Part shown: in pieces, positions 23,531 to 55,644 of the stretch
How the letters are laid out: each line of letters opens with the position of its first letter
Numbering within the stretch: the first letter of the stretch is position 1
IMG/VR virus record: IMGVR_UViG_3300014720_000002
Length of the DNA stretch: 64,000 nt
Direction: 5' to 3' (one strand)
From: a virus
The notes under the pieces: model-generated
Told to the model about the DNA's origin: nothing
What the model saw: only the letters and a program-made list of their open reading frames with translations
The model's database searches: none
Translations under genes and position numbers: made by a program

Positions 23531-24391
23531 ATGATGAAAGAGAACAAGATGGTGATCGCGGTCACGTTGACCGCACCCCTGCTGGGCGGGCTGCCCTTCA
23601 GCGACATTGCGCAGGACCACCTGCGCGTCAAGACGGAGAAGGAGAACAAGAAGGACCTCTCCAACCTGGAGCCTCGCGTCGCGGAGGAACTGGCCGTCGC
23701 TGCTGCCCAGGCCGAGCAGCGCCGGTTGCAACTCCTGGCCGCTGGGCTGGACGCCGAAGAGGCGCGCGGCACCACCGGGTTTGCCCGTGACGACATGGGC
23801 TTGTTCGTGTGGGACTATTGGTTCCGTGGCTTCATCAAGGAAGCCCTGGAGACGGTGATCGAGTGCGGCTGTGCACCCGCCGGCTTCAACCCCTGGAACC
23901 GCAAGAAGAAGGTCGATCAGTTGATCTTCGTGGAGCCGCGGCGCATCTATCTGCGCAAGCCGTCAGCGGAGCGCACGGCGTCATCGTCCACGGTCTGGAC
24001 CGAATCCCCCGGTTTCAACACCCGGCCGATCCGGACGGAGGATCAGCGCACTGGCGCCCAGCGCACGGCCATCGCGCGCAGCGAGGAAGTGCCGGAAGGC
24101 ACCTGGTTCGTGGCCGAGTTGGTGTATCTTGGGCCGGAGGAGGTCAAGGTCAGCAAGAGCGGCAAGTCGCAACCGATCGTGACCAAGGAGTTGATCGCAG
24201 ACATCCTCACCTACGGCCGCCGAAAGGGTCTCGGTCAGTGGCGGTCTGGTGGCTGGGGCACGTTCGACTGGCAGGAGTTGCCGGACAACAAGCTGGTGAT
24301 CAAGGCGTCCCGTGGTGTCGCCTCCGTGCCCAAGCAGGGCATCCACATCGAATGCACTCCCGGCTGTCCCCAGCCGGCCGTTGCGGTCTAG
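23531..24391 (+). CDS. Orphan Cas7-like RAMP protein (candidate Vipr-type guide-RNA-binding effector)
   Basis: RAMP architecture: N-terminal IAVTLTAPLLGG, GTTGFARD..GLFVWDYWFRGFIKEA, DQLIFVEPRRI, RPIR...RTAIARSEEVPEGTWF, and a C-terminal glycine-rich loop YGRRKGLGQWRSGGWGTF. A/C-rich leader AAAACAAACAAACGGT before ATG 23531. Confidence 0.85.
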   Translation: MMKENKMVIAVTLTAPLLGGLPFSDIAQDHLRVKTEKENKKDLSNLEPRVAEELAVAAAQAEQRRLQLLAAGLDAEEARGTTGFARDDMGLFVWDYWFRGFIKEALETVIECGCAPAGFNPWNRKKKVDQLIFVEPRRIYLRKPSAERTASSSTVWTESPGFNTRPIRTEDQRTGAQRTAIARSEEVPEGTWFVAELVYLGPEEVKVSKSGKSQPIVTKELIADILTYGRRKGLGQWRSGGWGTFDWQELPDNKLVIKASRGVASVPKQGIHIECTPGCPQPAVAV

Positions 24392-24442: not shown

Positions 24443-25192
24443 TCTGCTAGTCTGAGCACATGCAAAACGACATTGGTCTCCCTACTGTAGTCCTGGCTGT
24501 GCTGGTGGTGGTCCAACTCTTGTGGATTGTCCGGCAGACGGACTTCGGCAAGCTGGTCAAGCGCAGCAATCAACTGCCCAAGTTCGGCGCCAACCCGGAC
24601 TATCATTGGGTGCAGATTCGGCGTGAGGGCGGCGCGGCCTGGCTGGCGCTGACTGACGTGGAACTCGACACTGCCATCAAACGGGCCGAGGCCAACGACG
24701 AAGATCGACCATGACCAAACAACAGGCCGCGCGCGTGCGGCAACTGATCCGGGCCTTGCGCTCGGGCAAATTCAAGCAGTGCCGAAACCGGCTTCGCTCT
24801 GTGAGGGGTGACCGGTTTTGTGCTTCTGGGGTGGCTTGCGAGCTTTATTCCCGGAACATGAAAGGCACGGACGGAGTCTGGCAGATGTCGGAGGATGGTG
24901 ATGAGCAGGAGTTTCAATCTGGGCCACAGTCGAACTGCCAGACGCTGCCGTATCTGGTGCGGCAGTGGTTAGGCTTCCCCGATGACACCCAGGCTTTCAT
25001 CGGGGCTGCGTTCGTGCATGAGTGGAATCTGGATCCGAATCTTGATGTGGAACGGGTTGGCTTGGAGTTGCTGAACGATGGCGTTCGACAGAGTGCTGGA
25101 TTTTCCAAAAGTCACCGCGGCATGAACTTCAAGCAGATCGCCTGTGTGCTGGAGCGCTGGCTTCGCCACCAGCCCATTTCGGACTGACTCCT

Positions 25193-37533: not shown

Positions 37534-37955
37534 GGTGATGGCGAGGCAGCGGCAGGTTCTGTTGCTCATTGGTAAGGTCCGTTAATGTCCGGCGCTGTGG
37601 AGTAAAGTGACGGTGAGGCTGGGCTGGGTCACGCATGGTGTTGGTATCGTCCCGATAGGTTACGTTCAGCAAGGTAGCGTGAAGGTGCAGCGCCGGTATG
37701 TCGGCGCCTGGTTTGATCTGGTCTTGCGCAGGTGGTGATCCGTAGCGTCAGGTGAAGTTTCGTCCGGGTGTGGCTCGTCAATGTCGCGCACTGTTCAGCG
37801 AAGGCACTGTGGATCTGGGCCTCGTTCTGTGGCGGTGTTGTGTTGTCCCGTGAGGTTTCGTATTGGTGCGGTAATGCACGCCTCGGCGCAGTGCCGGCAG
37901 GCTACGGTTAGGCCGGGCAATACAAGGCAACGCTTAGCAAAGGTTCAGCAACGCA
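37534..37955 (+). repeat. Degenerate NGY-NN pentamer array A (candidate VIPR-like guide RNA array)
   Basis: 81 pentamers from 37540, 69 exactly NGY. Units of 31,41,31,41,11,36,36,36,31,31,31,46 nt each start with GGY. Fills the gap from a stop codon (37536-38) to the next ATG (37956). Confidence 0.85.
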
Positions 37956-40900
37956 ATGAGCATATTCAATCCCAACGCACTCCCAGACCGGTCACCGATG
38001 GCCGCCATCCGGCCTGAGCACTGGCCGGAAACGCTGGCCGAGTTGTCCTGCCATGACGTGGTCGTGAACTCGGTGCTGCAGGCCAGCGGCCCGCATTATG
38101 CAAACCTGTCGGAGCAGGAATCACTGCGGCTGATGGTGGTGCTGATGGCGCAGCGGCATCAGCATGTGCTGGCGGAAGCCATAACGCAGGAATTCAAACG
38201 TGCTCCGCAGCCAATCGTGCTACCCCACAAACGAGATGATCAGAAAGTTCGGTGAAGGACTCAGCACCCGGCGCGAGACGCACGAGGAACTGGGCGGCGG
38301 CTACGGACCAGACAAGCACAAACCGCTGGTGGCGGAGTTCATCGCCAACGACCAGGTGCAGATCTGGCCCAAGCGTTCCAGCCGCAAAGTGCAGATCGGC
38401 CTGCTGGATCTCTACGCCATTATCGTGCGCAAGAACGCCAACCTGGCCACCCTGGAGAAGGCGCGGGATCGGAAAGCTAAAAAGGAGAGCCAGCGAAAGG
38501 CGCGGCAGATTGCCGCCGCGGATCGACGGCTGCGCAAGGCGGCCAAAACAAACCTATGTTGAGTGAACAAGAGCGGCTGTGCTACCGGTCGCTGAAGGAA
38601 GGCGAAATCATCCAGCATGGTGATTTGGAGCTTGGTGGCGGTGAGCACGACCACTGGACGCCCGTCCTTCATCGGATCGGAAGCCCAGCCCCAGCGCCGG
38701 AATATCCGGCCCACAGCAAGTTCCTGCGACGCATCCTGTGCGCCTGGAAAGCCGACGATGACGGTGTCCTGCATGCCGCCTGCGGACAGGCGTATTGCTT
38801 CGAGCACGAGTTCACCGTTGGTGGTGCCTACCAGTTCTGCCCAGGATGTGGAAAACCCATTCGCCTATGCCCACCAACCTTGATCCCGGAAAGCGAGAGT
38901 TGAAGCGCACCCAGCGCACCAAGCCATGCCACGACTGCCCGTTTGCCAAGCACACGGCACCTGGTGCGTTGGGCGGTTCCACCCCTGAGGTGTATATGGG
39001 GCAGATCCAGGGTCCGTTCTGGCTGCCCTGTCACAACAGCAGCGGCTACGAGGAAAGCCGACGCGACCCGGGACATGAGCAGTGCGCGGGTGCTGCCATC
39101 TTCCGGGCTAATACGGGGCTGGAGCAGTTGATGCCTTCGGCCTTGCTGCATCTGCCTGCGGATGACAGCCAGGTGTTCCGAGGACCGGTGGAGTTCCTGC
39201 AGCACCATCTGGGCTTTACGCCGGAGCAGGTGCTGGCCTGGTTTCGCGCCAACCCGCCACAGAAGCTGCTGCAGGACGAGCTTGCCAAACAGGAAGCACA
39301 GGTGATGTTGCTGCCCAAGAAACCATGAGCGACCTCAAAACCTACGGCAAAGGCACCCGGGTCATGTGCGACCACCATTTCAGCGGCAAGCCGCGCGGCG
39401 TGGTGGTGGCCGTGCTGGAGCCTGGGCGGGGTAGCAGTGCCACGGAAGGCCGGATTCAGGTTCGGCTGACTGAGACGGTTGGGCCTTGGAAGAAAGGCGA
39501 GCTTCGGGAACTGCCGGCCTGGCTGGCGGTGCCACTGGCTCAGCTTCGTCCGCCGCGCGCTGGCGAGTTTTTCACCCGCGTCCTCACCGACTATCAATGG
39601 GCATGAAACAACTGAGCGACCTACAGCCGGAGCCATCCGTGGTGGATGCCAAGGTGGATGAGGTGCTCATGCCTGGCCAACTGAGCCAGGCGGAAGTGAA
39701 GCAGGCCGCCGACAAGGCGGGTCGTGACAAGCTGCGCGTCCAGGGTGCGGCGATACGGATGATTTTCAGTGGCCTTGGTCCGACGAACGACTGGTTTTCT
39801 CATTATGACTGACCGAAAGTTTTACTACCGGGAGTTTCTCATCCGGGTTGTCTCACCTGAGCCGGTGGATTCCATTGATGCGCTGCAGCGGGTGCTGAAC
39901 GATGAGCAGATGGGTGTCTGGTGCTCGCGCGAGCCTCAGCCCGCCCGTATGCTGGACGGCAAACAGACGGCTGACGAATTGAAGCAGATGGGGGCCACGC
40001 CACCGCTCTTCGACCTCGACGACGCCGGCAACGATCTCGATCCGGACGAGTGAACACCATTTTCGATGTTTATCGCCATGGCGCCAACCTCGGTTGGTCG
40101 GCTGACCAGGTGGTGACGGAGGTGCAGCGGCGGTTTAAGGCTGGCACCAAGCTGGGCGCCAACCATCTGCGCAAGCAGTATGCCGACACGGTGATGATGG
40201 ACCGGATCCAACTGCTGGCCATGTGCAAGGACCTGCGGGCCGTGTTGCACAGCTTCAGCCCGGACGGTCGTCCGCATGTGCCGTCGCTGGAAGATCCAGC
40301 CTGGCCGATGGTGCCGGCGGCGCTGCAGTCCAGCGCGGAACTGATTCAGAAACTAACCCCGACCGAAAATGAGTGATCCGATTGAGCATGCCGTGGCCGG
40401 ACTGTTACAGAAGGCCATCGACGAAGGCACCAAGGAAGCGACCCATGCTGCGGTGGAGATGATGTCGGCGGCCTGTGGTTACCTGCTGCCCCGGGTTTCT
40501 TCCGTGGACGTGAACTTGAAGAACGGGCATGCGCGCATCGAGTTTCATTCTCCATGGCGGTCGCTCAACCGCAAGCCGTTGCCGAAGACGCAGCAGCGGG
40601 TGGCTTTACTGAAGGTGCGGCTTGCCCTGACCAGGTATTTCCGGCTGTTCCCACAGTCTGCCGTGCCTCCGATCTCGGTGGTCAACTGCCCGACCTGTAT
40701 CGGCCGAGCGCCCATCAAATGTGCGGAAATGGCCTGGCAGGAGTGGCGTCAGCGGTGCACCAAGGTGGTGCAGGACGCCATCGACCAGAAGGGCTGGGTG
40801 GCTGGCTCGCTGGATGTGGACAAGGCCCATGGGCGGCGGGTGGAGATTCACGGCTATCTGATCGACGCCAAGACCGCCAAGCCGGTGAGCGCCGTCGAAT

Positions 40901-43900
40901 GGGAGGCGTTTGCGCAGATGTTCGATGCTGCGCTGTTGGGACCGGACCAGCAGAAGATCCAGGTGGTGCGGTGCCAGAAGTGTGCCAGGAAGTCCGCGGC
41001 TATCATGAATGGCATCGAGCAGGCCGATCGTCCGTCTCCGGACGCGCAGGATAGTTGTGGTAGCCAGAGTTTCGCCGCATGAAGGGGCTGCATCGCTGGA
41101 TCCGGCATGTGGTGGTGCGCCAGCCGGAGATGAAGCAACAGCAGAGGTTTCCTGGACGCGGCGGGTTCAGGCTGCTGGCTGACGCCCTGCTGTTCATCGA
41201 AGCACACGCTCCGCTCTGGAAGCTGGATTACGCGCCGCCAGGGGTGGAGTCGATCGGCAGCCCAGCCTATTTACCAGGCTTCAGCTATTGTCCCGGTCGT
41301 GCGTTGTCGGAGGTGCAGCGGGAGCTTGATTACATGCTGGCCTGGCGGCATCCGGCTGGGTCGATCAGCCGATGGGGTGTGGTGTCAACGGACCATGCGC
41401 GACTGACGAACCTGGCCGACGAACTGCACATGCTATTCCCGCATCTGGTGCACCGGGTGGTGGAGGTCCCAGAGTTGGCGGAAGTCCCGTGGAGTTCCTG
41501 GGACGAGCCAGTGAACGGCACGCATCCGCTGTGGAAGCTGCCGCAGGTTCCGCTGGGAATTCAAGTTGTGCTGGGCGGACGCTGGATGAAGCACTCCGTG
41601 CCGGTGCCTACGCCGGCAGGGGCGGATGCGCAGACGGGTGAGTTGGGTGAGCGAAGCATGATTCTATGATGAGTGAACCGTTGGCGGAAGGTCATCTGAG
41701 ACTGAGAGACAGGGAGGGCTGTGACCACGGAGTGCTGGAGGATCTGTTCAGCCGCATCTCCCGGCATCTGCTGAAGCAGAACGCCAAGGCCAAGAACGAC
41801 AAGGGCGCCTGCCGGTATTTTCAGCCCGACACCGGGCGCAAGTGTGCGGTGGGCTGCCTCATCCGGCCGGACACCTACGTGGAGACCATTGAGGGCTGCG
41901 AAGTGGACAGCGATGAAGTTCGTCAGGTGCTGGAACACTCTGGCGTGAGTGTCGCCCATCGGGCGGTTCGTGATCTGCTGATCCTGCTGCAGCGGGTGCA
42001 CGATCACGAGGATGTCGAGGACTGGGCGCATGTGCTGACGCACATGGCCAAGGAAAACGGATTTGAAATGCCATGCCTAAAGAACTGACTTACGGCGATC
42101 TGCTCAGCCAGACCGGCACCGCGGGTCCGCGGCCGTTCCTGCACTGCCCAGCGTGCGATACGCGCTACTCGGCCAACGCGGCCGACTACTGGGATCGCGA
42201 CAAGTGCGAGGTCATCCGCTGTTGGCGCTGTGAAGAGCCGTTGCTGCGGGTCCGAGAGGAAACCAGACTGGTGGAGACTTGAGCATGAACTTGCATATCG
42301 ACGCGGAAGATCTGGTCAGTGCGTTTGGACGGCAGTTGCTGGGTGTCCGGGTGTTTGTCCTTGAACCCCGGGGCGAGGTGCCTGCTGGTTGGGCCACGAT
42401 CCGGCAAGTTGTGCCTGACAAAGAGGAGCCAACCATCGTGCTGCAGGTGACCCAGGACAACTACGGGTCGATCGGTGTTTTTGACAACGAGCGGCTGATG
42501 GTCCCCATCAAGAAGGGGAAACGGCCAGGACAGTTCCAACTGTTGCATGCCGTGCCGTCCAAGCGTAAAGCCCGAAAAGCATGAAGCCAAAATTCTACAC
42601 CCCGCCGAAGTTCGAGTGGGACGGCCCTTATGACGGAGGCAAAAGCCCGCGCTGGTGCTGCCAGCACAAGGAACTGCGAGGGTTGGATGTGGTCGAGCCG
42701 CTGGGGAACAACAAAGGCTGTCTGCTGGTCTATTTCCGAAACGACCACCTGCAGGACTTGTTTGGCGAAGGCACAGGCGGTTCTACGCTGCTGGATGGAG
42801 ACCAGTTCAAGGACAAGGACGAGCTTGCGGGGTTCGCCCTGCGGCTGGTCCGCTGGCACGCCAAGGCGGTGGAGAAGGTGCCGGTGCCGACCGAGGTCAA
42901 GGCGCTGGTGGGCCGAATCCGCCACGAACTGCACGCGCAGGCGCAGAAGCTGCGCGAGCAGTGCGTCTATCACGAGATCCTGCGCCAGGCTGTGGACCGC
43001 GTGCTGCCGACCGTCGGGCTGGAGCCTTACGACGAACCAGGAGACCTGGCCGCCAATCTAATCCGCAAGCTCAACGAGTTCGTCCTGCCCTGCGATCCGC
43101 CCAAGTCGCCGCCCTTCTTCAGCGAGGGCAAGCTCTACGACCTGCTCGGCAAGACTGATGCCCGGGATGTGCTCAGCCTGATCGCCGAGGTGAAGCGCCG
43201 ACTGGACCCGGTGAGAGGTGCGCTATGAAAGGCAAGCACAAGGACCGTCAGCCGGACACCATCCGGGCGGAGATCAAGCGCTGGGAAGATTACCTGGCGC
43301 AGCGCCTTCAGCAGCAGGTGGCCCGCGATGAGGAGTTGAAGCGCCTGCGGATGGAGGAAGAGCAGGTGAACAAGGAATGGCGGGCCAGGCAGGCCGAGTT
43401 TCGTGCTGCAGGCAGCCGGCGGTTTCAGTTACTGCAGGAGTTGGTCCGCCGGGACAACGCAGCAGTGCTGGAAAAGCTGACCGGATTGCGGAGCCAGCTT
43501 GCCCTGTCTGAGCGGGTGGCGGAAGGGTCACCACGGGTGCAGGCGTTCATCAAGGTCATCTCTCGCGGCATCGACTGGAGCGGGCGGTGGGTCTGTGTCT
43601 GGGAACAGGGTGACTTCTGCATACTCACCAAGCGCACCGGGTCGGTGTTCGCCGGCATCGGCTGTCGGGCCGTGGCGCCGGCCCTGCATGGACTCTACGA
43701 CCTGCGGAGGCTGGACCAGCCTGCTGACCACGGTGGTATCGCTGTTGGTCAGGCGCTGGAGCGGAAGTGCTGTCTGGCCAAGCAGGAGGGCGGTCGCCTG
43801 ACTCCGACCATGAAGCAGGAGTGGATCAAGGTGGCGGAAAGGAGTGCGTGAGCATGGCAAAACCAACCATCTATCAAAAGGCCGTGGGCAAGTGCCCCGT

Positions 43901-45208
43901 CTGCGGCCGGTATCCAACCTGGTTCAACGACGTGCCGCTGACGGCCTTCTGCTGGGGACCGACCAAGGGCAGGCGCAACCACGAGAACCGCGAGGCCAGG
44001 TGCATCGTTCCCGGAAAGGCGCAGCCTTATGGGCGTGGTCCGAGGAAGGCGGTGTGGGCAGTGCAAGCAGCAATATGGATAAAGAAATCGAAGCAAGCTT
44101 CCACCAGCAGATCGAAGCGTTCCGTCAGTGTCGGACGAGGTTGATCGACTACAAGGCGCAGGTGTTTCCCAGGGAGCAGCCGGTGCAGGTGAACTGTGCA
44201 CGGTATCAGGGCACGGCCATTGTCATCCTGGACGCGGAGTGTCCGCCTGACATGCTGGCGGTGGGTCTGCCCAATGGAAACCACCACTGGTATCCGTTGG
44301 AGGCATGCACGCCGGCGAATTGGCCTGACCCCGAGCCGCCGGTCAGCGCGGGGACGGCGCTGTTGAAGTTCGGCGCACCGCCGGCTCGCCTACTCACCCG
44401 ACCAATCATCTCGGTGGATCGCCGCACGGGCAAGCTGGGAATCTTTGACGAGTTCGACCTGATCTGGGGTTTCCGGGCGTTCGAGGACGAGGCGCATGCC
44501 GTAGAGATGGCCAAGCTCTGGCTCAAGTCCTTCTGCAACCTGGATCCGGAGGTGGTGCATCCCAACGTGACCAAGATGAAAGTGAACTGATGACCAAAAT
44601 GCCGTTGGTAGTTCCGCGCATGCCGCTGGATGACGCCAAGCCCGACGGTTACATGGAGAGTCTTGACGACTGGATCAAGGCCAACCTGGAGGCGGTGAAG
44701 TGGTTCTTGGAGAACGCCACCGCGGTTAGCACGACTATGTCACCGGCCGTGCGCCTGGTGGTCATCCATTACCACTCCAAACCCGACCGTGCTGGTAACG
44801 TCTATTGGGCGTTCCGCTGCATCGAGCCGAGCACGGGTGGAATGGTGGAGGGCCGGCACGGCGGCGGCGACCCGAACCTGACCCAGGCGCTCTGGCGCAT
44901 GGCTGATGACAACTCTCCCGGCAGCAAGGTGCTGAGGATTCCAAAGGAACTGGGCATCCGTCAGTTTGCCCGGATGATCGACGAACCTGGCTGCGACATG
45001 GCCGGCACGTCCGGCGGTCAGATCTTGGACTACATCTCCAGCCGGATGCCGGCTGGCTTCTTGGAAAGGTTCAGAGCATGACGGACAAGGAAGAAATCGA
45101 ACGGTGGTTGGCCACGCTGCCCGACGGCATGCCGGTGGGTGTCGATGAAGGCGGCCTGACGCTGGTGGCAGAGGATGGGTCGTATTTGGAAGTCGGAGGA
45201 ATATCAGG

Positions 45209-45973
45209 ATGAGCACTCCAAAATGGGTGGCGCCCGCCGGCAGCCAGGAAGGGTATCAGGTGGCCCGGACCAAATTCGTAGCCCACGCACTGCTGGCCGA
45301 GTTCGTGTTACAGAAAGCGCAGCAGGAAGATCGGCCGCTTGAGGTGCTGTCATTTCCCGGCACGTCTTTTCAGTGGGAGCACATGCTGCATGCGGCATCG
45401 TCCGGAGAGATCCGGCTGACCGGGCTTGAGTCCAATCCGAAGGTGTTTCTGAAAGGCGAAACCAAGCTGGAGGCGCTGCAGATGCCGATGCGCTACATCC
45501 ACACTACGGACCTGAACTTCTGGAAGCAGGAAGGCGCGCAGAAGGACGTGGTGTGGCTGGACTACTGCGGACCGTGGTCCAAGCTCAAGATGGCCTCGGT
45601 CAAGGCCATGATAGCCAATCGGCGGCTACGTCACGGCCAGACCGGACCCTTGCTGGCCGTTACGCTCATGGATGGGATGGACTTCCAGACCATCGGCGAA
45701 CTGATGTTGCTGGCCAACACGAAGACCCGGCGATTCAAGGCCCGAGTGGGCGGGATACCGAAGTGGATTGACCAGGTGGCGCGCGAGCATGGCGGCGCGG
45801 CGGAGTTGAAGTTTCTGCTGCATTATCGTGATGGTTTGCGCAAGGCCACGCCCATGCTGACGTTCGTGCTTCAGTTGCACGACCGGCCGAAGAAATTCGA
45901 TGTTTGGAATGCTGCCACGATGGATCTTCTACAGGATCGCCTGACCGCCATCATCAACCGAATAGGAAGGTAG
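45209..45973 (+). CDS. Possible class I SAM-dependent methyltransferase-like protein
   Basis: LEVLSFPG...IRLTGLESN...DVVWLDYCG resemble motifs I, II and IV of Rossmann-fold methyltransferases. Confidence 0.5.
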   Translation: MSTPKWVAPAGSQEGYQVARTKFVAHALLAEFVLQKAQQEDRPLEVLSFPGTSFQWEHMLHAASSGEIRLTGLESNPKVFLKGETKLEALQMPMRYIHTTDLNFWKQEGAQKDVVWLDYCGPWSKLKMASVKAMIANRRLRHGQTGPLLAVTLMDGMDFQTIGELMLLANTKTRRFKARVGGIPKWIDQVAREHGGAAELKFLLHYRDGLRKATPMLTFVLQLHDRPKKFDVWNAATMDLLQDRLTAIINRIGR

Positions 45974-48373
45974 CTGCATGAACTACATCTCGGACGGGAC
46001 AGTGATCGATCAGCGCACCTACGACGGGCTGTGTGACATCTTCAACCGGGTGGCGAGCCATCTGCTGAAGCAGGCCCGGCGAGCCGTTGCGCACTCGGCC
46101 ACGGGCGGGATGGGCTGCCGCTATCGGTTGTGCGACGGACGGGCCTGCGCGGTCGGTTGTCTCATCACCGATCAGAATTATCATGACGGGCTGGAGCGCA
46201 AGAATTCCGATGACCCGCTGGTTGTTTCCGCCGTGACGGCCAGCCTCGGCCGGTCGCTCACCAAGCATGAGCAGCAGTTGCTGGAAGCGCTGCAGCATGT
46301 GCATGACATCGACCTGGCGACCTGGGGCGATGATTCCGGCATCCCAGCTTGGTCGATCGTGGCGTCGCTGAACCGGGTGGCGCACCGGTTTGACCTGCCT
46401 GGACTACCGAAACCCAAAGACGCACCAGCCGGCGTATGAGCACTCCGAGACTGGAAATTCGGCAGCTTGGTCTGACGCACGTCACCCAAAGCTGCCCGTG
46501 GGGCCTCTACAGCCGTCACGGGCATCGACTGCTGTGCTCGGACGGACAGGTGCGCGCCGCCACTCTCGCCTCTACCCCGGACACGTTCTTCAGCGTGCCG
46601 GCGTCGGTGCGGGTGAAGGGCAAGACTGTCTCGGGCTACATGACGGTTGAGGAGGCTGGTGGCGGCAAGCTGCGTGCCTACGTGTTCCGCCATCATACGG
46701 CTCACCGGGACAAGCTGCCGGCCTGGCCTGACCGGTTCACTCCGGAGCATGAGAGGCTGGTGAACAGTGTGATTACGCATGATCAATCAAAAGGAACTGA
46801 CCGCGCTGGTCGCTGAGGGGGCGACGCTGCTGGCGGTGTATCGGTTGCGGGAGGATGGCGATGGCGATTTCATCGCCTTGTTCGACATCGAGAACTGCGC
46901 GGAGCGGTTCGCCGACAATACCGGCGACGGTGCGGCTGTGTTGGCTGCCGTTGTTCAGGCCGGCCTTGCGGACGACGGCGAGGAAGCCGTGTGGGTCTGC
47001 TTCCAACGGATGGCTGATGTGGTGGACATTCTGGAGGGAGCCCAGGAACGGTGGGAAGCTCAACGTGAAAAGCCGCACAACCCCGTGCCGTGAATGTCCC
47101 TGGCGCCGAGCTTCGGCGCCAGGATGGCTGGGTAGCGAGCAGACGCCGGAGGAGTGGGTGAAGACAGCGCATGGTGAGGTGACCGTGGAATGCCACACGG
47201 AAGCGCCCAAGCTGTGTGCTGGCATCGCCATTTACCGCACCAACGTCGCCAAGAAACTTCGCAACGCCAGCGTGCCCATCCTGTCCGGCGATAAGTCTAA
47301 GGTGTTTGCTACGCCGGCGGAGTTCATCCAACACCACCGGTCTGGTGTGGTCAGCAGTGAGATCAAAACATGAGCAAACTTGATGCAGCGGTCGAAGAAG
47401 TGCAGCGCGCTTTGGAAGGGTTCACCGAGGACTGCTTGACCAATCATCCGGAACAACGGGTGGAACTGGAGGCGGCCTGGTTGCTTATCCGGCGTCGGCT
47501 GTTGCGCCTTCCCTCAGATGGGTTGCGATGTGGGGAGCGGTTGTATCTGGATGGCAATCTGCATGCGGTCTGCACTCAGCCAGGAGGGGTTGAGCACACG
47601 CATCACGATCTGGACGCTCAGCAGGCCATCGCGGCAGGGCTGGCCCGTCCGGCCTCGGACACAGATCGGCCGCATGCGCCAAGTGAGGTGCAGAACCAGC
47701 AGGTGGCTGAGTGGCCTTGGCAGGATGCCGGGGTGCATCCATTCTCTCCGCATGAACTTGGCCTGAGGGATAGCGAGGGCGCGCAAGACTGGATCAGCAA
47801 TGATGAGTTGGTAGGGTTGTCGGAGGCCCGCCCTGGCGGCATCATCGGCTACATTCATCGACTGCACGCCGACCGGATTGCCGGTCTTTTGAACCTGGCC
47901 GGGATGGTGGTTGAGAACGAACATGATTAACATGGTGGAACACATTCGGGCAGACCGGCGGTTGACTGCCCAGGCCAAGGTCAGTCAATTCTCTTGATCT
48001 ACATGACCACCGAGGAACTCTTCGACGCGGTGGCGCCCATCGCCATCTACCACTGCACGGACGTGCGGTTCCAGCAGCGGGCCAAGGTTGGCCTGCGCAA
48101 GCTGAAGGCTGCCGGAGTGCAGCTTCCGGACGAACCGCTGGATGATTTGGCTGACTGGGCCAAGGACGAGCACGACCGGCTGTTCATTGAGATCGTCAGC
48201 GATCTCGCCCCGGAGTGGACCTGGGATTACGACCGCTGGGGTGCCAAGGCATGGAAAGATGAACGCGGCGCGCTGGTGTTCGCCGGTGACGCGCACGATC
48301 AGTTTCCTTGGTATGAGACGGCGGCTCTGCTGAAGGAGCGGGTGCTGGAGCATCAACTGGAGGGAGCGACGGC

Positions 48374-49030
48374 GTGAACGACGAGCAACTGATCAGTTTG
48401 ATGGACAAGGTCGCGGAGGATCACGCCAGCCGAGGGCAGACCTACGCCGGCGGACCCTATCGCAAGCACCTGGAGGATGTGGAGCGCCTGCTGAGGACCG
48501 CCTGTAACGTCGCCTGGGTGGAAGAGGAGTCGGTCGGCGCTTTGCTTGCCGCCGGCATCCTGCACGACTGGTTCGAGGACTGCTTTGACGGGTCGCACAA
48601 GTTCTCACACTGGCGCCTGACCGGAACGCTGATTGACTGGCAGGGTGAGTTTGGCGTGCCAGCCGTCAGCCTGATGATGGCGCTGCGCTGCTCCGATCCG
48701 CCCGGCATGTCGCGACGTGAGGCCAAACGGGCTATCTTGCCGGTTATCGTGGCCTGCGAAGGTGCCCGGGCAGTCAAGCTGGCTGATCGGATGGCGAATC
48801 TGGAGCAGAGCATTGCTGACCGCAATCGAAAGCATCTGGAACGCTACATTGAAGAGGCTAGGCAGTTAGCGCCGGTGGCGGACCAGCTTGAGACTCCGGT
48901 TGATGCAGTGCAGGAGACTCGACACTACGCCCCGGTGCGAGACTACTTGGCTGGTTGCTATGCGGATGTCCTGGCTCGGGCCGCCGAGAGTTTTCATACT
49001 CTGCGCGGCCCGACCAATGCGGTGAAGTGA
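48374..49030 (+). CDS. RelA/SpoT-type HD-domain (p)ppGpp hydrolase-like protein (small alarmone hydrolase-like)
   Basis: H..GQTYAGGPYRKHL..V...AAGILHDWFEDC...EFG...RAVKLADRMANL. Confidence 0.78.
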   Translation: MNDEQLISLMDKVAEDHASRGQTYAGGPYRKHLEDVERLLRTACNVAWVEEESVGALLAAGILHDWFEDCFDGSHKFSHWRLTGTLIDWQGEFGVPAVSLMMALRCSDPPGMSRREAKRAILPVIVACEGARAVKLADRMANLEQSIADRNRKHLERYIEEARQLAPVADQLETPVDAVQETRHYAPVRDYLAGCYADVLARAAESFHTLRGPTNAVK

Positions 49031-49376
49031 CGGTATTGGAACGCTTAGCCGCGTGCCGCCATGCCTAGCACAGGCTACGTGCGGTCCGGTCAGGTCTCGT
49101 AATGGTAAAGTGACGCAAAGTCGGGCTTCGTCGAGCGATGGCCGGGTGTGGTCAAGCAGGGTGTGGTGGTTCAAAGTTAAGGTGTCGCGTCGCCTAGTCA
49201 GGTCACGCGCCGGCAATGGATGGTGCCGTCCGGTTTAGCAGCGCAGCGGCATAGTGACGAAAAGGCCTGTAACGTGAAGCACAGGTAAGGTGCCGTGAGG
49301 CATGGTGAGGTCTGGCACAGGTAAAGCAGAGTCACGCGGGGTCCGGTTCAGGCGAGGATAGGTGGAGTCACGCAGC
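49021..49376 (+). repeat. Degenerate NGY-NN pentamer array B (candidate VIPR-like guide RNA array)
   Basis: 69 pentamers, 68 with central G, 63 exactly NGY. Units of 11,41,31,36,41,31,36,36,36,31,26 nt, all starting with GGY. Ends directly at ATG 49377. Confidence 0.9.
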
Positions 49377-50708
49377 ATGCAGATTCGATTGAAAGAACGC
49401 TGGCAGGCGTGGGTGGAGGTGTGGACCGCCATCCGCGCCTGCCATGCCGGCAGGAACGAGAAGCTGGAGGTGCGGCGCACCGGACAGGTCTGGGACGTCG
49501 GTGCCAGACAGTATCGCGAGCGGCTGGAGTTCCGGGCCGCCGACAACCCCGGCTGGGAAGGCTACAACCGCTCCCGGAACCTGCTGGCGACGAAGGTGCC
49601 GCGCCTGTCCAAGGCGCTGGAAAAGTTGAAGTGGATATGAGCAAGAAGACGATGACCCTGGTGGTCGAGATCGAGTATGATGGGTTGGAAGGACCGTTCC
49701 GACCTGCCCTGGTGAACAAGCTCAAGGACCGGCTGCACGCCATGGTTGAGCGCGAGGCTGGCGAGGGCGGGCTGTCGCCGGACGATGGCAGTGTGGCCGT
49801 GGCAAGCTGGGACGCCCGGGTGGCTGATGGGCCGCTCACGCTGCTGAACCCGGCGCAGGTGCGCGATCTCAGCAAGCTGCTGGATTACACTGAGGCGGAT
49901 GAAGAGCGACACTACGAGGAGAGCAAACCCTGCCGCAACCACATCTGGCATTCGATTCGCCGGCTGAGGAAAGCTACACCCGAACCATGAACCTTTACTC
50001 ATTCGGAGCCGCGGCCAGGGAAGGCGCCTGCCGAGCAACCTGGGACCCTAAGCACAGCAACTTCGTGATGCACATCTGGCAGAAGGGTAAGCCGACGCCC
50101 ATCGCCACCTGCCGGGATACCACGCAGGAGAAGTGCGAGGCGGCGGCGCGGCAGGTCAAGGAGGCGCTGGAGCTTCAGGCGCGGCTGGAGTCGCCGGAGT
50201 TCAGCGCCGCGCTTAGGCTTGCCCTGGAGGGCACGCTGACTACCCGGCTGCGTTCGGTGCACGGGCTGGACCCGTTCTCACGGAAGCGCACCAAGCGCGC
50301 GGCTGAGTTGGAAGTCGAGTTCTTGGTTGGCGCCATGAGCGCCATCAACGCGACGTTTCCTGGGCGTGACTCCGAACTCAGCAGCAAGGTGCCGGTTTAT
50401 TGGCCCATGTGCCTTATGAGTGGGCGCTCGGTGCTGCAGTCCGCGAAGAAGTCATGAAGCCACTATATTACTACGTCCTCATCGACAGTGAAACCTTGGC
50501 GCGGTTGCAAGCACGGGTTGCCACCAGGTTCCGATTCCACGGGCGCATCCAGGTATTTCGGATCGAGCGCAACCAGGTGATCAAGGCAGAGAGTCTCTGC
50601 ATCCAGTGCCCAGACCAGTTGTCCGCTGAAGTGCGGGATGATCTGCTCAGCTTTGTGGCTGGTTTCGTTGAGGGGGCCGACCTGCAGTCATCGACCGCCC
50701 ACCTGGGT

Positions 50709-50736
50709 GTAACGGAGCCGTCGGTTGTGACATAAG
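50709..50736 (+). promoter_or_regulatory. Class I promoter GTAAC-N18-ATAAG
   Basis: Exact 18-nt spacing; followed by a structured leader and ATG at 50800. Confidence 0.7.
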
Positions 50737-51194
50737 ATGGTGAAGGAAGAGCTTCCTTTACCGGCAGTGTTGCCGGGCAACCATCAACGAAAGCCAAGTA
50801 TGAAAGCACTGTGGAACCACCTGAGAATCGATCAACGTGCCGCCCTGGCCACTGCCTTTGGCGTGGTCTTGATCGTGGCCATCGGCCTGCTGCTCGCCCG
50901 TTACGGCGTGCCGGGCAGCCAGAATGCCGGGATCGTCCGGCTGTCGGTTGAACTGCCGCCGGGTCAGTCCCGTGCGGAGATCCTCCTGCCGGGCGGCTCG
51001 TCCGGTAGCTGGGACGAGATCCAGCAGATGATCAGCAGCATCCGCATCACGCGGAATGACGGCAGCACGCGGGACTTCAGTCCCCATCAGTTCGACAAGC
51101 TCAGCCAGGAGACACACGCGTTCCGGGAGGTCACGTTAATCACGACCAACCACGCCAGGATCACTTTGGCCAGGCAACCTTGAACGCAGCGAAC

Positions 51195-51250
51195 GGCCCG
51201 CTGCCGGTCCAGTAGGATCGGCAGCGGGCCGGTTATCCAATCCTTTAGTT
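51195..51250 (+). terminator. 16-bp hairpin followed by CCTTTAG
   Basis: GGCCCGCTGCCGGTCC-agta-GGATCGGCAGCGGGCC (one G-U pair), then TCCTTTAGTT at 51241. Confidence 0.6.
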
Positions 51251-52012
51251 TATGGGTGTGCATCAGCGTAAATTCGGGAAGGAGAATCCTCTCAAGTTCG
51301 ATTGCGTCACGTTCATGACGCTGGCGACCAGGCATCGCTTTCGCGAGGTAAGCGGCTGGTTTCCGCAGGAGGAAGAAACCTACCGTCTGCCGGCTGAACT
51401 GCAGTTGGCCAACTGGTATGGTAATGCGCCGCAGCAACCGGATCAGGCGGCCATGCAGCATGATGAGTCGGCTGACCTGGACGCGCTGGCCGATGTTACT
51501 CGACCGTTCGGCTCCGAGCGGTGGCATGACTTTGATCGTCTGCCATTGGCAGAGCGGTTGGAGGCTCTGAAGCTGTTCTACGATGATCTCACCTGCGACC
51601 TGCAGTCGCTGCGGCAGAGATTCAAACCGGAGGAGGTAGAGAACTACACCGGCCCTGACAGTCCTGCTGCTGAGTTGAAAAAGCTGGTCCGTTACCGGCA
51701 ACGTGTGGCGCGAAAAATCGAGCGCGTGCGCCGCACGATCGACAAGCAGGAAAAGCTACGGCTGCAGATGCAGGCGTCGCGCGACCGCCTACGGATTGTT
51801 TGGGAGAGGTCGGACCGCGCTAAGGAGGAAAAGCAGGCGTCGGCGAAATGGCAGCGTCAGTTGGAGTTGCTGACCTATCTCGCCGAGGCCAAGGCGAAGA
51901 GCGATCACTACGCCAACAAATCCCGGAGGCACAGCCCGCAGGCTGCCATGGCTGATCGTGGAAGTCAGGCACTCGGCGGGTAAAACCGAGTGCCAACAAA
52001 AGTAAAAAATCT

Positions 52013-52312
52013 ATGTCAAATCCAAGCGCAACGCCGAAGCCCAAGACGCCAGCCGAGTTGTCCTGCACTGACTTGTTAGGATGCCCGTTCTGTGGTGAAC
52101 AGCCGGAATACTCGCCAGCCGCCAAAGACCCAAACAACCCGCCGTATGGCTGGCCACACACGCTAAACCACAACTGCAAAATCATCGGAAGGCAAATCTG
52201 CATCCGCTGCGACTACTCCAAATGTGAGGACACAAGAGCGGCGGTGACTGCCGTGTGGAACACTCGCTGGCATCCTAACCATCAATCTGCGGCGCGACAA
52301 CTGTTCGCTTAA
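52013..52312 (+). CDS. Lar-like (restriction alleviation) zinc-finger protein
   Basis: LLGCPFCGEQ...C...AAVTAVWNTR matches the CPFCG...A...WN.R pattern. Confidence 0.65.
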   Translation: MSNPSATPKPKTPAELSCTDLLGCPFCGEQPEYSPAAKDPNNPPYGWPHTLNHNCKIIGRQICIRCDYSKCEDTRAAVTAVWNTRWHPNHQSAARQLFA

Positions 52313-53404
52313 ACTATGAGTAAGTCGGAGAAGCTGAGAAAATTGGCCAACGCCGTTCGGCGTTACCGCGGCCTGCTTGGATCGCCTGGGCATGACGGCG
52401 TGGTCCGGTGGAAGCAGCCACCCATACCTTCAGCCAAGGACGATGTCCGGCGCTGGCTGGGCAGGCTGGGCCTGGATGTGGAAGCGCATCTGCGGCGTGT
52501 GGACGAGTTTCCTTCGCTGCAGCAGTTCGCGGAATGGCTGGAAGAGTTGGAGAATGGCAATGAGCACGTTGTGGCAGGAACTTCGGAAGTGGGAAAATCA
52601 TGAAAAGAAACTGGCTGATCAGGCATTACCAGGCGGCGCTGGTGTTCGCGAGCCGGACCCGCAATCGCCCCCTGTCCGACTACGTTCGACAGGAGTTGAA
52701 AAGGTGGTCGGCGGCACCGTCCTCTGGAAGCCGGTCGATCGCCTAGCGGCTAAGATGCTGGCCAAGTCGCCCTGGTGGGCGCAGCCAGTGCATGTGCCGA
52801 CACCGCCACCAGCGGCGCCGGCTGCAGTTGAGAAGGCAAAAAAGAAGAGAACACACAAGATTATGGGAGACAACGCTGTCATTGTGGAGACAGGAGACAA
52901 GCGTGCGCCACAGGATGTCCGTCCGCGGATGAACGACGCGAGCTACACGAGCGCATGCGGGCTGGAGGTGCACCGGATCAACGGGCAGGACATGATTTCG
53001 CTGGAGAGTGCGCAGACTGTCCTCTGTGCCGAGATTGCGAAAATGCCCAAGGAGACGCGACCGCTGGTTTTGGCCGCCCAGGACGCCCGACGGATCGTTA
53101 ATGAGTTGACGGACGGCATTGGCGCCGATCAGGAAAAGTTCAGGGTCAGTGCCAAGATGTTCCTGGAGGATGTCCGCCAGACCCGGTTTGCGGTGGTGCA
53201 GGAGGCCAGCGCAATGATGACGCCATTGCGCGATGTCCGCACTTTCTTCCTGGGGCCGGATTACAAGGAGCAGGTGACCAGGTTGAAGGAGTTCGTGGAA
53301 CTTTGCGAGCGGCTGCAGAAGCTCAAGGAGTCGGGTTTCCTGGATAACGTCGCGGACACCATGCTGCGACTGGCAGATCGGCCAGCCACCGGCGCCTGAT
53401 TGAA

Positions 53405-53486
53405 TGCGCTGTGGTGCTTGGAAAGGTCTCGTGCGGTCGCGTTAAGTCACGGTCCAGTGAGGGCGTGGCAAAGTCCTGCGCGGAAC
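53405..53486 (+). repeat. Short NGY-NN pentamer array D
   Basis: 16 pentamers, all with central G, 14 NGY; two 6-nt phase steps at 53451 and 53462, each followed by GGY. Starts 6 nt after the stop at 53399. Confidence 0.7.
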
Positions 53487-53529
53487 CGCACCAGTTGGGC
53501 TTCGGCCCGCTGGTGCGGTTTCCTTTAGC
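53484..53529 (+). terminator. Nested hairpin (11-bp outer stem plus GGGC-UUCG-GCCC) followed by CCTTTAGC; closes array D
   Basis: AACCGCACCAG / CTGGTGCGGTT is a perfect stem. Confidence 0.7.
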
Positions 53530-53540
53530 CATCCACTCCC

Positions 53541-53568
53541 GCAACCAAGCACGCCGCTGTGTCATAAG
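53541..53568 (+). promoter_or_regulatory. Class I promoter GCAAC-N18-ATAAG
   Basis: Exact spacing; lies upstream of the MYG1-like gene. Confidence 0.7.
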
Positions 53569-53647
53569 CCTTTGGACAGGACTGTTTCTTGTCTGGGAGC
53601 ATCCGGCCTCCAACCATTTAAGCAACTGCCGGAAGGAGAACTGTAAC

Positions 53648-54730
53648 ATGTCAAAGATCAAAGAGGCGGCGATCCTCAAAATCGTCACTCATCCCGGCCG
53701 GGCGCACCGGGATGAGTTTCTGGCCATCGCCATCGTGCTGGCCAGCCTGCCCGCCGCGCAGATGCGGCAGGTCGCCATCGAACGCCGTCAACCCAAGCGC
53801 GAGGACACCCTGGATAAGGGCGTGCTGGTGCTGGACATCGGCGGCGGTGAATTCGACCACCACCAACTGTCCCCAGAGGCGCCGGCGACCTGTGCGCTCA
53901 CCCTGGTGCTCAAGGACCTCGGGCTGCTGGAGCAGGCGCGCGAGGTCTGGTCGTGGCTGGAGTTTGTCGAGGTCATGGACAGCAAGGGACCGGGGGCGGT
54001 CGCCTCGCGCGCCGGCGTGCCCTGGGACAAGCTCTCCGGGCTGACCATGAATCCGGTCGAGATGTGGGCGCTCCATTGGTTCGCCAACAACCCGGACAAC
54101 ATGAAGGACGTGCTCAACGGCGTCGGTGCCCGGTTGTTGTCCGAGCTTGCGGACTACCGGTCGGCCCTGACCCTCCTGGACGCGCACGCCCATGTGGTGT
54201 TCGTGCGCGGGGTGGCGTTGCTCGACCTCACATTCACGAGCGACACGACCGCCGTCAACAAGTGGCGCATGCAGCACTGCCCTCACGCCAAGGGCAGCAT
54301 CATGAAGGACGACCGCGGCGGGGGCTACACGCTCTACGCCTGGCAGATGGGCGGCGGGTCCGGCTGGCTGGACTTCCGCCGGCTGGCGCATCCCGGCATC
54401 ACCTTCATCCACAATGGAGGGTTCCTGGCCAAGACGCGGATGACGGTGACGTTCCGTGAGGTTCTGGATCTGCTGACACAGGCGCTGCCGTCGGAGCCGG
54501 TCTGCCTCGGCAGCATGGTGGGCAATGGGTTCTCGGTGCAGGGAAGCTGGCAGCCGGCGCCGACAGATGACGGATCGCATTTCGTCATGGTGACGATCGG
54601 GACGGCCAAGCACGGGTGTGTGGAAGGTATGCTCTGCTTCCGCACGGAGGCGGCGCTGCGCTCGGCCATGAGCCATGTGCGCAACCGCATTGAGATCAGC
54701 CTGTCGAAGGGGGAGGTGGCCCATGCTTGA
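53648..54730 (+). CDS. MYG1-family (UPF0160) metal-dependent nuclease-like protein
   Basis: IVTHPGRAHRDEFLA...VLDIGGGEFDHHQ...DSKGP...FIHNGGFLAKT. Confidence 0.85.
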   Translation: MSKIKEAAILKIVTHPGRAHRDEFLAIAIVLASLPAAQMRQVAIERRQPKREDTLDKGVLVLDIGGGEFDHHQLSPEAPATCALTLVLKDLGLLEQAREVWSWLEFVEVMDSKGPGAVASRAGVPWDKLSGLTMNPVEMWALHWFANNPDNMKDVLNGVGARLLSELADYRSALTLLDAHAHVVFVRGVALLDLTFTSDTTAVNKWRMQHCPHAKGSIMKDDRGGGYTLYAWQMGGGSGWLDFRRLAHPGITFIHNGGFLAKTRMTVTFREVLDLLTQALPSEPVCLGSMVGNGFSVQGSWQPAPTDDGSHFVMVTIGTAKHGCVEGMLCFRTEAALRSAMSHVRNRIEISLSKGEVAHA

Positions 54731-55208
54731 AGTGCGCATGCACTGGCGCCGAGGTCATCTGCACACAGTGAAGTTCGGCAAGGGTCGGGAGAGTTCCCGG
54801 CTGGACTGGTTCGAGCCGATATTGGTCAATGCGCCGGAAGGAAAGGAGGTGAACGTATGAGCGAAAAGAGTGAGCAAGTGCTGCGGGACGCCATCGAAAA
54901 ACATGTTGGCGCACTACTTCACGCAGAGTTGCAACGGGACGAACTGCATGTCTATCTGTCCTGGGACAAAGCTAGTGGAAAAGTCACGGTTAATTGCTTC
55001 TCGACCTTGGCGCTGAACCTTCTCGATCGATCGCATAAGACCACCGTCGGCGGCTTGGACGAGTTGATCGACAGCGTGTTGGAGGGCTGCGACCGAAAGC
55101 AGGCCAAGGTTTGTCTGGACCAGATACAGGCAAGCTTGGACAAGGCTCGTGCTGGCTGGCAGAAAGTATGCGCTGAGTGGGATCGGGAACATCGACCTGC
55201 GAATCGCA

Positions 55209-55593
55209 GGTAAAGCAAAGGTGAGGCGAGGTGTAGCATCGTTGCGTGCGGTTCAGGTGTAGTGCCGTGAAGATGGGTAATGTAAAGCGCCGGCGAGGTG
55301 ATGCTTGGTGTGGTGGCATCGCGTTTGGAACAGTATTGGAGACGCGGCGCACAGCATGGTAGCGCAATGTGGTGGCGTCGTATCGAGGCGCTGAGTATTG
55401 GCCTGGCACGGCGGCGGTGGGCACCGTAAAGCTACGGCATGGTCACGTCAGGTTCAGTGCAGCACAGGTAACGCGACGCAAGGTTCGGTTTCGTGCTGTC
55501 ACGTATCGGTTTGGGTGGGTCGAGCGCTGGGCTGTCAGGCAAAGGCGAGGCGGGGTCTGGTCCGGTTTCGTTACGTCGTGCGCTGTGCCGACG
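55209..55593 (+). repeat. Degenerate NGY-NN pentamer array C (candidate VIPR-like guide RNA array)
   Basis: 75 pentamers, 74 with central G, 66 NGY. Units of 11,36,36,46,36,26,36,31,41,36 nt plus a final ~50-nt unit. The upstream TAA (55211-13) is embedded in the first pentamer. Confidence 0.9.
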
Positions 55594-55639
55594 AACACCA
55601 GTTGGGGCGCAAGCCCTGGCTGGTGTTCGTCCTTTAGCT
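55591..55639 (+). terminator. Nested hairpin (11-bp outer stem plus GGGC-GCAA-GCCC) followed by CCTTTAGCT; closes array C
   Basis: ACGAACACCAG / CTGGTGTTCGT is a perfect stem; same architecture as 53484. Confidence 0.7.
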
Positions 55640-55644
55640 ATCAG

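What the first reader, a model, noticed from the sequence alone, without database searches (positions are those of the whole stretch)
37540..55593. Possible three-letter code: removing the GY scaffold leaves unique 18-27-nt strings that often read like codons
Seen after deleting the scaffold positions: GAGTGGTGGCACATGGTT (EWWHMV, 37612), ATGGGCCTGTTGCTGCTTGCA (MGLLLLA, 37695), TACGCGCCGCAGCTCAAT (YAPQLN, 49073), AAGGCCGAGATGGAGCTGACA (KAEMELT, 49284), GAGGATTTGGTGGGCCGCTTGACAATT (EDLVGRLTI, 55292), CTGACGGGCTGGACCAAATAC (LTGWTKY, 55400), AACGACAAGTCGTTCGCTCACATC (NDKSFAHI, 55467). Six stop triplets occur in about 240, against about 11 expected if uniform, which is suggestive but not significant. 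Inference: the variable base before GY may record or pair with the target base that a GGY/NN code would skip, and guides may be phased to codons so that wobble changes do not allow escape. This would also hint at templated acquisition.
Basis: inference. Interest (0 to 1): 0.8.

Follow-up and report, generated by a model that had tools for sequence, protein, structure and literature searches.

The report
VIPR guide arrays with three-letter words
Three non-coding stretches of a lake-water phage are guide-RNA arrays of the recently described CRISPR-like VIPR system, and here three bases of each five-base repeat, not the published two, appear to carry target information; the idea that the guides generally read like codons is not supported.

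Summary
The pattern is real. Three intergenic arrays (37540-37955, 49031-49376, 55214-55592, + strand) consist of units GGY + (NNN-GY)n. G is 94% conserved and Y 91%, while all three N are variable. This is the VIPR class (two 2026 preprints), in the 'YNNNG' and 'staggered array' forms those papers only mention. A lone Cas7-fold gene lies at 23531-24391, and its homologues elsewhere sit directly beside the same kind of array.

In-phase stops number 5 of 207 against 7.3 expected in the window, and 21 against 20.1 in 81 non-redundant guides from five related phages.

The core inference, that the base before GY carries target information, gains support from two results:
- In guides shared by five diverged phage lineages, this base changes as rarely as the two published guide bases (11 changes against 10 and 14) and four times less often than Y (46).
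- One guide (37574-37611) matches, contiguously and in frame, the invariant KPNPAGKD motif of an LTD-like gene found in bacterial defence islands. Its third bases match the family's third codon bases better than chance (P about 0.001).

Only one target was mapped. No RNA or binding data exist. Templated acquisition is untested. I class this as a new variant of a known kind.

The parts
23531..24391 (+). vipr-like gene: a lone Cas7/RAMP-fold protein of 286 aa with the G-loop GLGQWRSGGWGTF
   Evidence: No Pfam or PHROG hit. 18 homologues. AF2 model pLDDT 76. Foldseek top hits are type VII Cas7 and Csm3, E 1e-7. The profile hits Cas7 and Csm4 G-loops in PDB sequences. hhalign to the SUSP1 Vipr G-loop gives probability 39%.
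37540..37955 (+). vrRNA array A: about 12 units of GGY + (NNN-GY)n, ending at the ATG of the next gene
   Evidence: Parse. Syntenic arrays in related phages: L040 8625-9056 and L041 6066-6410.
37574..37611 (+). Guide with a mapped target. Triplets AAG CCG AAT CCG GCT GGA AAA GAC, between GGT heads at 37571 and 37612.
   Evidence: The contiguous decoded string hits 7 metagenome contigs, in frame, at codons 9-16 (KPNPAGKD) of an LTD-like gene. In 27 GTDB alleles, NN matches 16/16 in 16 of them. Third-base test P = 0.001. The guide is kept in L040 and L041.
37615..37639 (+). Guide GAG TGG TGG CAC ATG (GTT), shared with relative L039
   Evidence: n3 is identical at 5/5 positions, Y at only 2/5.
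49031..49376 (+). vrRNA array B: about 10 units fitted between the stop codon of an HD-phosphohydrolase gene and the next ATG
   Evidence: Syntenic arrays follow the HD gene in L036, L037, L039 and L076.
49036..49072 (+). First guide of array B (ATT AAC TTA CGC GCC CAT CTA ACA), kept in all five lineages
   Evidence: Triplets are conserved while the scaffold dinucleotides vary.
55214..55592 (+). vrRNA array D: about 10 units
55590..55640 (+). Strong hairpin with a GCAA loop, then a short T tract, closing array D. Probable terminator or 3' cap.
   Evidence: RNA fold -36.9 kcal/mol, z = -6.8. Similar hairpin sequences end the arrays in L036 and L037. The simple terminator scan did not call it.

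Best explanation
The three tracts are guide-RNA (vrRNA) arrays of a phage VIPR system. Copies of a lone Cas7-like protein (Vipr, gene at 23531-24391) would line up along each guide, one copy per five-base repeat, hold the constant G-Y bases, and present the variable bases to double-stranded target DNA to silence it.

This clade uses the 'YNNNG' repeat form in back-to-back ('staggered') arrays. Each guide runs from one GGY to the next and holds 5-9 triplets.

The difference from the published GGY/NN code is that the position corresponding to the first G of GGY is free to vary and is itself informative. Each repeat therefore contributes three letters, and the target is most likely a contiguous 15-27-bp sequence with no skipped base.

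Shown here: the array anatomy; the link between arrays and the Cas7-fold gene; guide-specific conservation of the third letter; and one target match.

Inferred: that the third letter base-pairs with the target; that the RNA is made and cut at the GGY heads; and that binding silences the target. The one mapped target is an LTD-like gene in bacterial defence islands, so at least this guide may be aimed at a host defence-island gene rather than at a rival phage.
For: Anatomy and class:
- Pentamer parse and per-position conservation.
- Vipr homologues P0013 and P0009 sit directly beside arrays of the same form in L001 and L002.
- Cas7/Csm3 fold.
- YNNNG repeats and staggered arrays are named in bioRxiv 10.64898/2026.04.26.720920 (Methods section 20 and fig. 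S18 legend).

Third letter constrained:
- 154 homologous pentamer groups across five phage lineages show minimum changes of n1 10, n2 14, n3 11, G 10, Y 46. Fisher test, n3 vs Y: 3e-7.
- W against its relatives over 43 pentamers: n3 2 changes, Y 13 (P = 0.003).
- When homology is ascertained on n1n2 alone, n3 is identical in 199 of 211 pentamers.
- Four-fold sites of the neighbouring HD gene are only 54-60% identical between W and its relatives.

Target:
- A 21-specified-base contiguous pattern from guide 37574-37611 hit 7 metagenome contigs, all at the same in-frame motif of one protein family.
- In 27 alleles found through a peptide pattern, the guide's n3 equals the majority third base at 6 of 8 positions (7 of 8 for the L040/L041 versions). 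P = 0.001 and 0.0003-0.0005.

Protein side:
- D177, which contacts G1 in SUSP1 Vipr (10.64898/2026.04.26.720927), aligns with an invariant Gln (Q236) here.
- H17 appears replaced by Gly/Ser/Thr/Ala. That alignment is by eye only.
Against: - Only one of about 31 window guides has a mapped target, so the third-base match rests on 8 positions.
- No found allele matches a guide at 24 of 24 positions; the best are 23 of 24.
- Across the unbiased alleles the third base agrees at only about 48%.
- In-phase stop triplets are not depleted (21 vs 20.1). TAx triplets are TAG 11, TAA 6, TAC 9 and TAT 1. So if most guides were sense and codon-aligned, n3 could not be the codon's third base.
- n3 composition is close to the genome's own base composition.
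- The vipr gene lies 13-31 kb from the arrays in this phage.
- There is no RNA, binding or structural evidence for this clade.
- The hhalign match to SUSP1 Vipr is weak (probability 39%).
Confidence: 0.6

Rival explanations
1. Standard published VIPR rule. Only the first two bases of each triplet are read, the target's third base is skipped, and the base before GY is an unread, degenerate remnant of G1.
For: - The published experiments establish the 1-nt skip rule for type II systems.
- n3 composition resembles the genome background.
- No stop depletion.
- NN alone already matches the LTD motif 16/16 in 16 of 27 alleles, whatever their third bases.
Against: - An unread base should drift like Y or like four-fold sites (30-45% different). 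Instead n3 differs in about 5-7% of homologous pentamers, the same as n1 and n2.
- n3 of the mapped guide matches the allele population's third bases with P about 0.001.
Confidence: 0.2
2. Templated acquisition without reading. Guides are copied from target DNA three bases at a time with GY inserted, so n3 records the target base but plays no part in recognition. Shared guides would be repeated independent copies.
For: It would explain identical triplets with different Y in different phages and the third-base match to the LTD gene.
Against: - No acquisition machinery was identified, and no Cas1-like or reverse-transcriptase gene was looked for systematically.
- Long collinear blocks of guides shared between relatives, up to 37 pentamers, point to descent rather than re-acquisition.
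- After acquisition an unread n3 should decay, and that is not seen.
Confidence: 0.1
3. One reading: the triplets are literal codons, with guides generally sense and in phase with target reading frames.
For: - The one mapped guide is sense and in frame.
- Compositions of n1, n2 and n3 resemble codon positions 1, 2 and 3.
- Codon-usage likelihood z = 3.2 with the phage table.
Against: - Stops 21 vs 20.1 expected; sense-open guides 62 vs 63.3; 4 guides closed in both orientations vs 5.7 expected.
- z is only 1.1 with a bacterial codon table.
Confidence: 0.12

Closest known systems
VIPR type II of Escherichia phage SUSP1 (Vipr + vap1 + vrRNAs; bioRxiv 10.64898/2026.04.26.720920, .720927, 10.64898/2026.10.15.759431)
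   Same: - Phage-borne.
- A lone Cas7-like RAMP with a ...G-x-W-R...GRF G-loop.
- Guide RNAs made of 5-nt repeats with constant G and Y.
- Target period of 3 nt.
- The mapped guide lies on an invariant protein motif, codon-aligned.
   Different: - SUSP1 has an invariant GGY and two variable bases; here only G-Y is constant and three bases vary.
- SUSP1 vrRNAs are about 100 nt with a pseudoknot tail; here guides abut each other with a GGY head and no tail.
- The arrays lie 13-31 kb from vipr instead of flanking it.
- The G1-contacting Asp is Gln here.
- The third base appears constrained rather than skipped.
VIPR systems with 'YNNNG' repeats and 'staggered' arrays (named in Methods section 20 and the fig. 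S18 legend of 10.64898/2026.04.26.720920)
   Same: The repeat consensus and the one-base register shift between successive guides fit both descriptions.
   Different: The text I could read gives no decoding rule, conservation analysis or targets for this repeat form. The supplementary figures and tables were not available, so overlap with unpublished detail cannot be excluded.
Class 1 CRISPR Cas7 backbones (type III Csm3, type VII Cas7)
   Same: Same fold, and periodic interruption of a guide-target duplex by a thumb.
   Different: No repeat-spacer array and no other cas genes. The period is 5 nt in the guide rather than 6, and two guide bases are displaced per protomer.

Membership tests
VIPR | Lone RAMP (Vipr) protein with RRM core, glycine-rich loop and thumb | tested here: met
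   AF2 model pLDDT 76. Foldseek top hits are type VII Cas7 and Csm3, E about 1e-7, probability 1.0. The profile hits Cas7 and Csm4 G-loops. The G-loop aligns to SUSP1 Vipr only weakly.
VIPR | Non-coding arrays of 5-nt repeats with a constant GGY or related consensus and hypervariable N | tested here: met
   G 94% and Y 91% conserved; the three N carry 0.02-0.09 bits. The consensus is YNNNG rather than YNNGG.
VIPR | Arrays associated with the vipr gene | tested here: inconclusive
   In the window the arrays lie 13-31 kb from the gene. In two independent homologue loci (L001, L002) arrays of the same form directly flank vipr. One homologue locus (L003) showed no array.
VIPR | NN of successive repeats match a target with a 3-nt period, usually codon-aligned | tested here: met
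   For one guide only: NN 16/16 in 16 of 27 LTD-like alleles, in frame and sense. No other guide was mapped.
VIPR | The third target base is skipped (not read) | tested here: inconclusive
   The guide base at that position is conserved like NN and matches target third bases above chance. This speaks against skipping in this clade, but it rests on sequence inference and one target.
VIPR | vrRNAs are expressed, processed and bound by Vipr | not testable with these tools
   No RNA run was available for this sequence.
VIPR | Accessory vap gene next to vipr | not tested
   The neighbours of vipr (24460-24714 and 24711-25187) have no informative family hit; the second matches phrog_18067, of unknown function.
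CRISPR-Cas | Repeat-spacer array with identical direct repeats and other cas genes | tested here: not met
   No such tandem array. No Rfam CRISPR direct-repeat hit.

The most novel reading that the evidence does not exclude
One VIPR clade has lost recognition of the first G of GGY (SUSP1 H17 and D177 replaced) and turned that position into a third guide letter. Each protomer then reads three contiguous target bases while hiding only two guide bases. This would be a '3-of-5, no skip' code, intermediate between the published 2-of-5 VIPR code and the 5-of-6 code of class 1 CRISPR. It gives 18-24 bp of specificity from filaments of only 6-8 protomers, and at least one such guide is aimed at a gene in host defence islands.
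Probability: 0.5. Interest if true: 0.75.

Novelty: new variant of a known kind. Interest (0 to 1): 0.62.

Why it matters
VIPR was described only in 2026, and its defining idea is a gapped code that ignores each codon's third base. If a natural clade reads that base too, three things follow:
- The code is not fixed but evolvable.
- The 'wobble-proof' rationale does not apply to all VIPRs.
- Engineered versions could gain specificity per protomer.

It would also give a concrete intermediate for the proposed path from VIPR to CRISPR backbones. Separately, the mapped target nominates an uncharacterised LTD-like small protein, found next to type I restriction-modification and Druantia genes, as something a phage may need to silence.

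Tried and rejected
- Rfam and tRNA scans of the window found nothing.
- blastn of the region against phage records: no match.
- Self-targets: no guide matches the phage's own 167-kb genome above shuffled controls.
- Exact NNx scans of IMG/VR:
  - Guides at 55292 and 55544: 0 hits.
  - Guide at 55467: 32 hits, which fall into unrelated protein families (a ~200-aa protein family of unknown function, a ~97-aa family, giant-virus ORFs) and are chance-level.
  - L001 guide: 3 out-of-frame hits.
- Contiguous scans of two conserved guides in IMG/VR: 0 hits and 1 out-of-frame hit.
- The LTD motif pattern in IMG/VR: one unrelated hit.
- The conserved first guide of array B against 401 Verrucomicrobiota genomes: 26 hits against 9 for the reversed control, but no shared protein context and third-base agreement of 3/6 or less.
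- Three guides against five LTD-carrying genomes: one chance-level hit for the first guide of array B, none for the other two.
- All 107 guides against the 34 LTD loci: only the one guide hits. A 5-triplet guide matching hsdM in six loci is within chance.
- A 'synonymous-only' pattern of n3 changes looked promising on 9 cases but vanished with the full set.
- Laying contigs of four lake runs on the region showed only the same phage and no variant arrays.
- No RNA holder was listed.
- Relatives could not be drawn for a virus record. Logan and ENA contigs are not held for whole-record pattern searches.
- The terminator scan did not call the array-D hairpin.
Full report
**What is there.** The window is one-strand, phage-like DNA with GC 0.62. 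It belongs to a single 167,647-bp contig from lake-water metagenomes. A register-aware parse of three intergenic tracts (37540-37955, 49031-49376, 55214-55592, + strand) shows about 31 units. Each unit starts with NNN-G-GY and continues with 4-8 pentamers NNN-GY, so a unit is 5n+1 nt long.

Over 194 internal pentamers, G is 94% conserved and Y 91%. The three N carry 0.02, 0.04 and 0.09 bits. The base before a unit-opening GGY avoids G (6%). No other array exists in the genome. Array D ends in a very stable GCAA-loop hairpin (-36.9 kcal/mol, z = -6.8).

**What class it is.** VIPR systems pair a lone Cas7-like protein (Vipr) with vrRNAs made of GGY/NN repeats. The NN bases pair with target DNA while every third target base, usually the codon wobble, is skipped.

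[quoted passage not shown] The window's arrays fit YNNNG and staggered.

The gene at 23531-24391 has no Pfam or PHROG hit. Its AlphaFold model (pLDDT 76) matches type VII Cas7 and Csm3 (E about 1e-7). Two of its distant homologues (33-38% identity) lie directly beside arrays of exactly this form in unrelated contigs L001 and L002. Membership in the VIPR class is therefore well supported, although here the arrays lie 13-31 kb from the gene.

I reproduce six of the seven quoted strings exactly. The seventh, at 37695, depends on an ambiguous register.

The suggested depletion of stops is not real.
- In the window there are 5 stops in 207 triplets, against 7.3 expected when the third base is permuted.
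- In L001 and L002 the counts are 8 vs 9.9 and 3 vs 4.4.
- In 81 non-redundant guides from five related phages there are 21 vs 20.1, with 62 sense-open guides against 63.3 expected. TAx triplets split as TAG 11, TAA 6, TAC 9, TAT 1, which is what composition alone gives.

So the strings do not, as a set, read like ORFs.

**Is the third letter informative? Evolutionary test.** Homologues of the HD-phosphohydrolase gene upstream of array B (59-70% identity) led to four further phage lineages with syntenic arrays: L036+L040, L037+L041, L039 and L076. Most guides differ between lineages, but some are shared.

- In 154 homologous pentamer groups, the minimum numbers of changes are n1 10, n2 14, n3 11, G 10 and Y 46. 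Fisher test for n3 against Y: 3e-7.
- For W against its relatives (43 pentamers), n3 changes 2 times and Y 13 times (P = 0.003).
- When homology is defined from n1n2 alone, n3 is identical in 199 of 211 pentamers and Y in 174.
- Four-fold degenerate sites of the adjacent HD gene are only 54-60% identical between W and these phages.

The base before GY is therefore under guide-specific constraint equal to that on the two published guide letters. An unread base would not show this.

**Is the third letter informative? Target test.** Guide 37574-37611 (AAG CCG AAT CCG GCT GGA AAA GAC) is kept in three lineages. Its contiguous decoded string, with three positions left open, hit seven metagenome contigs. 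All hits lie at codons 9-16, in frame and sense, of a ~173-aa protein whose AKPNPAGKD motif is invariant. Pfam gives a sub-threshold Lamin Tail Domain match.

Because that pattern fixed the third bases, I drew a sample unbiased for them, using the peptide pattern on GTDB genomes. This gave 27 loci, mostly Acidobacteriota and Verrucomicrobiota. NN matches 16/16 in 16 of them and 14-15/16 in the rest. The guide's third letters equal the majority third codon base at 6 of 8 positions, and at 7 of 8 for the L040/L041 versions.

Against all 65,536 possible third-letter strings weighted by the array's own n3 composition, P = 0.001 for W and 0.0003-0.0005 for the relatives. The matches include non-preferred codons (AAT, GCT, AAA), so shared codon bias does not explain them.

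The gene sits beside type I hsdM/hsdS or Druantia druA, that is, in defence islands.

**Protein side.** In SUSP1, G1 of GGY is held by H17 and D177, G2 by R138 and W178, and Y3 by R179 among others. I fetched the SUSP1 vipr gene (KT454805.2 28474-29061). hhalign places its G-loop GVGDWRPRFGRF on GLGQWRSGGxGRF of this family (probability 39%). W and R are kept, and D177 corresponds to a Gln that is invariant in all 18 homologues. By eye, H17 (PFLSH) corresponds to Gly/Ser/Thr/Ala (PLLGG). This fits loss of G1 recognition, but it is an inference from a weak alignment.

**Weighing the evidence.** The conservation result is strong and does not depend on any target. The target result is significant but rests on one guide and eight positions, and no allele found matches 24 of 24. 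The absence of stop depletion rules out the strong 'codons' reading. It is compatible with three-letter reading if targets fall in any frame or strand, because a code that reads all three bases has no reason to align with codons.

My best account is a VIPR variant with three informative letters per repeat and a contiguous target (confidence about 0.6). The published two-letter rule, with an unread third base, gets about 0.2. Recording without reading, through templated acquisition, gets about 0.1.

**What failed.** No second guide could be mapped with the scans available. No guide targets the phage itself. No RNA data exist for this phage.

This scan has met VIPR-type arrays before on other DNA, including one with 'variable triplets interleaved with GC linkers'. 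I saw no earlier test of the third letter.

Noticed in passing
L042-L075 (e.g. L059:3995-7855, L063:4001-6768): A family of ~165-175-aa LTD-like proteins with an invariant N-terminal AKPNPAGKD motif lies next to type I R-M genes (hsdS fragment, hsdM, hsdS) in Blastocatellia/Pyrinomonadaceae loci, and next to Druantia druA in an Opitutaceae locus. It has no PADLOC hit. It may be an undescribed defence-island gene.
   Followed up: partly
L036:13074-14135 and 16039-17094; L037:17442-18491: In the related phages, genes with precomputed AcrVA2-like (PF26125) hits lie directly upstream of the array that corresponds to array D. The window has a different 118-aa gene (54857-55213) in that place.
   Followed up: no
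window 37540-55600 and related arrays: Stop-like triplets, mostly TAG, are over-represented as the first triplet after a GGY head: 7 of 21 stops fall at the first position, which holds about 15% of triplets. The triplet just before a GGY head avoids G at its third base and is often ACA, ATT, TCA or AAA. This may mark a processing site.
   Followed up: partly
window 37615-37639 vs L039:7606-7636: The same guide (GAG TGG TGG CAC ATG) sits in array A of this phage but in the array after the HD gene in relative L039. Guides therefore move between arrays or are gained independently.
   Followed up: no
Five of them (41510, 41514, 44413, 44433, 44605) also differ from the contigs of the source runs. 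None lies in an array.
   Followed up: partly
MT835520.1, MT835477.1, MT839334.1, MT835513.1 (phage records): Four human-gut phage records encode distant homologues (28-32% identity) of this Vipr-like protein. I did not check them for arrays.
   Followed up: no
window 53411-54730: A 439-aa ORF has a MYG1-exonuclease-like N-terminal match (PF03690, E 6e-6). It is conserved at 63-69% identity in the related phages, just upstream of the array-D region.
   Followed up: no
P0001: An identical Vipr protein is on record on a 194,028-bp contig, longer than the 167,647-bp genome held here. The held genome may therefore be incomplete.
   Followed up: no
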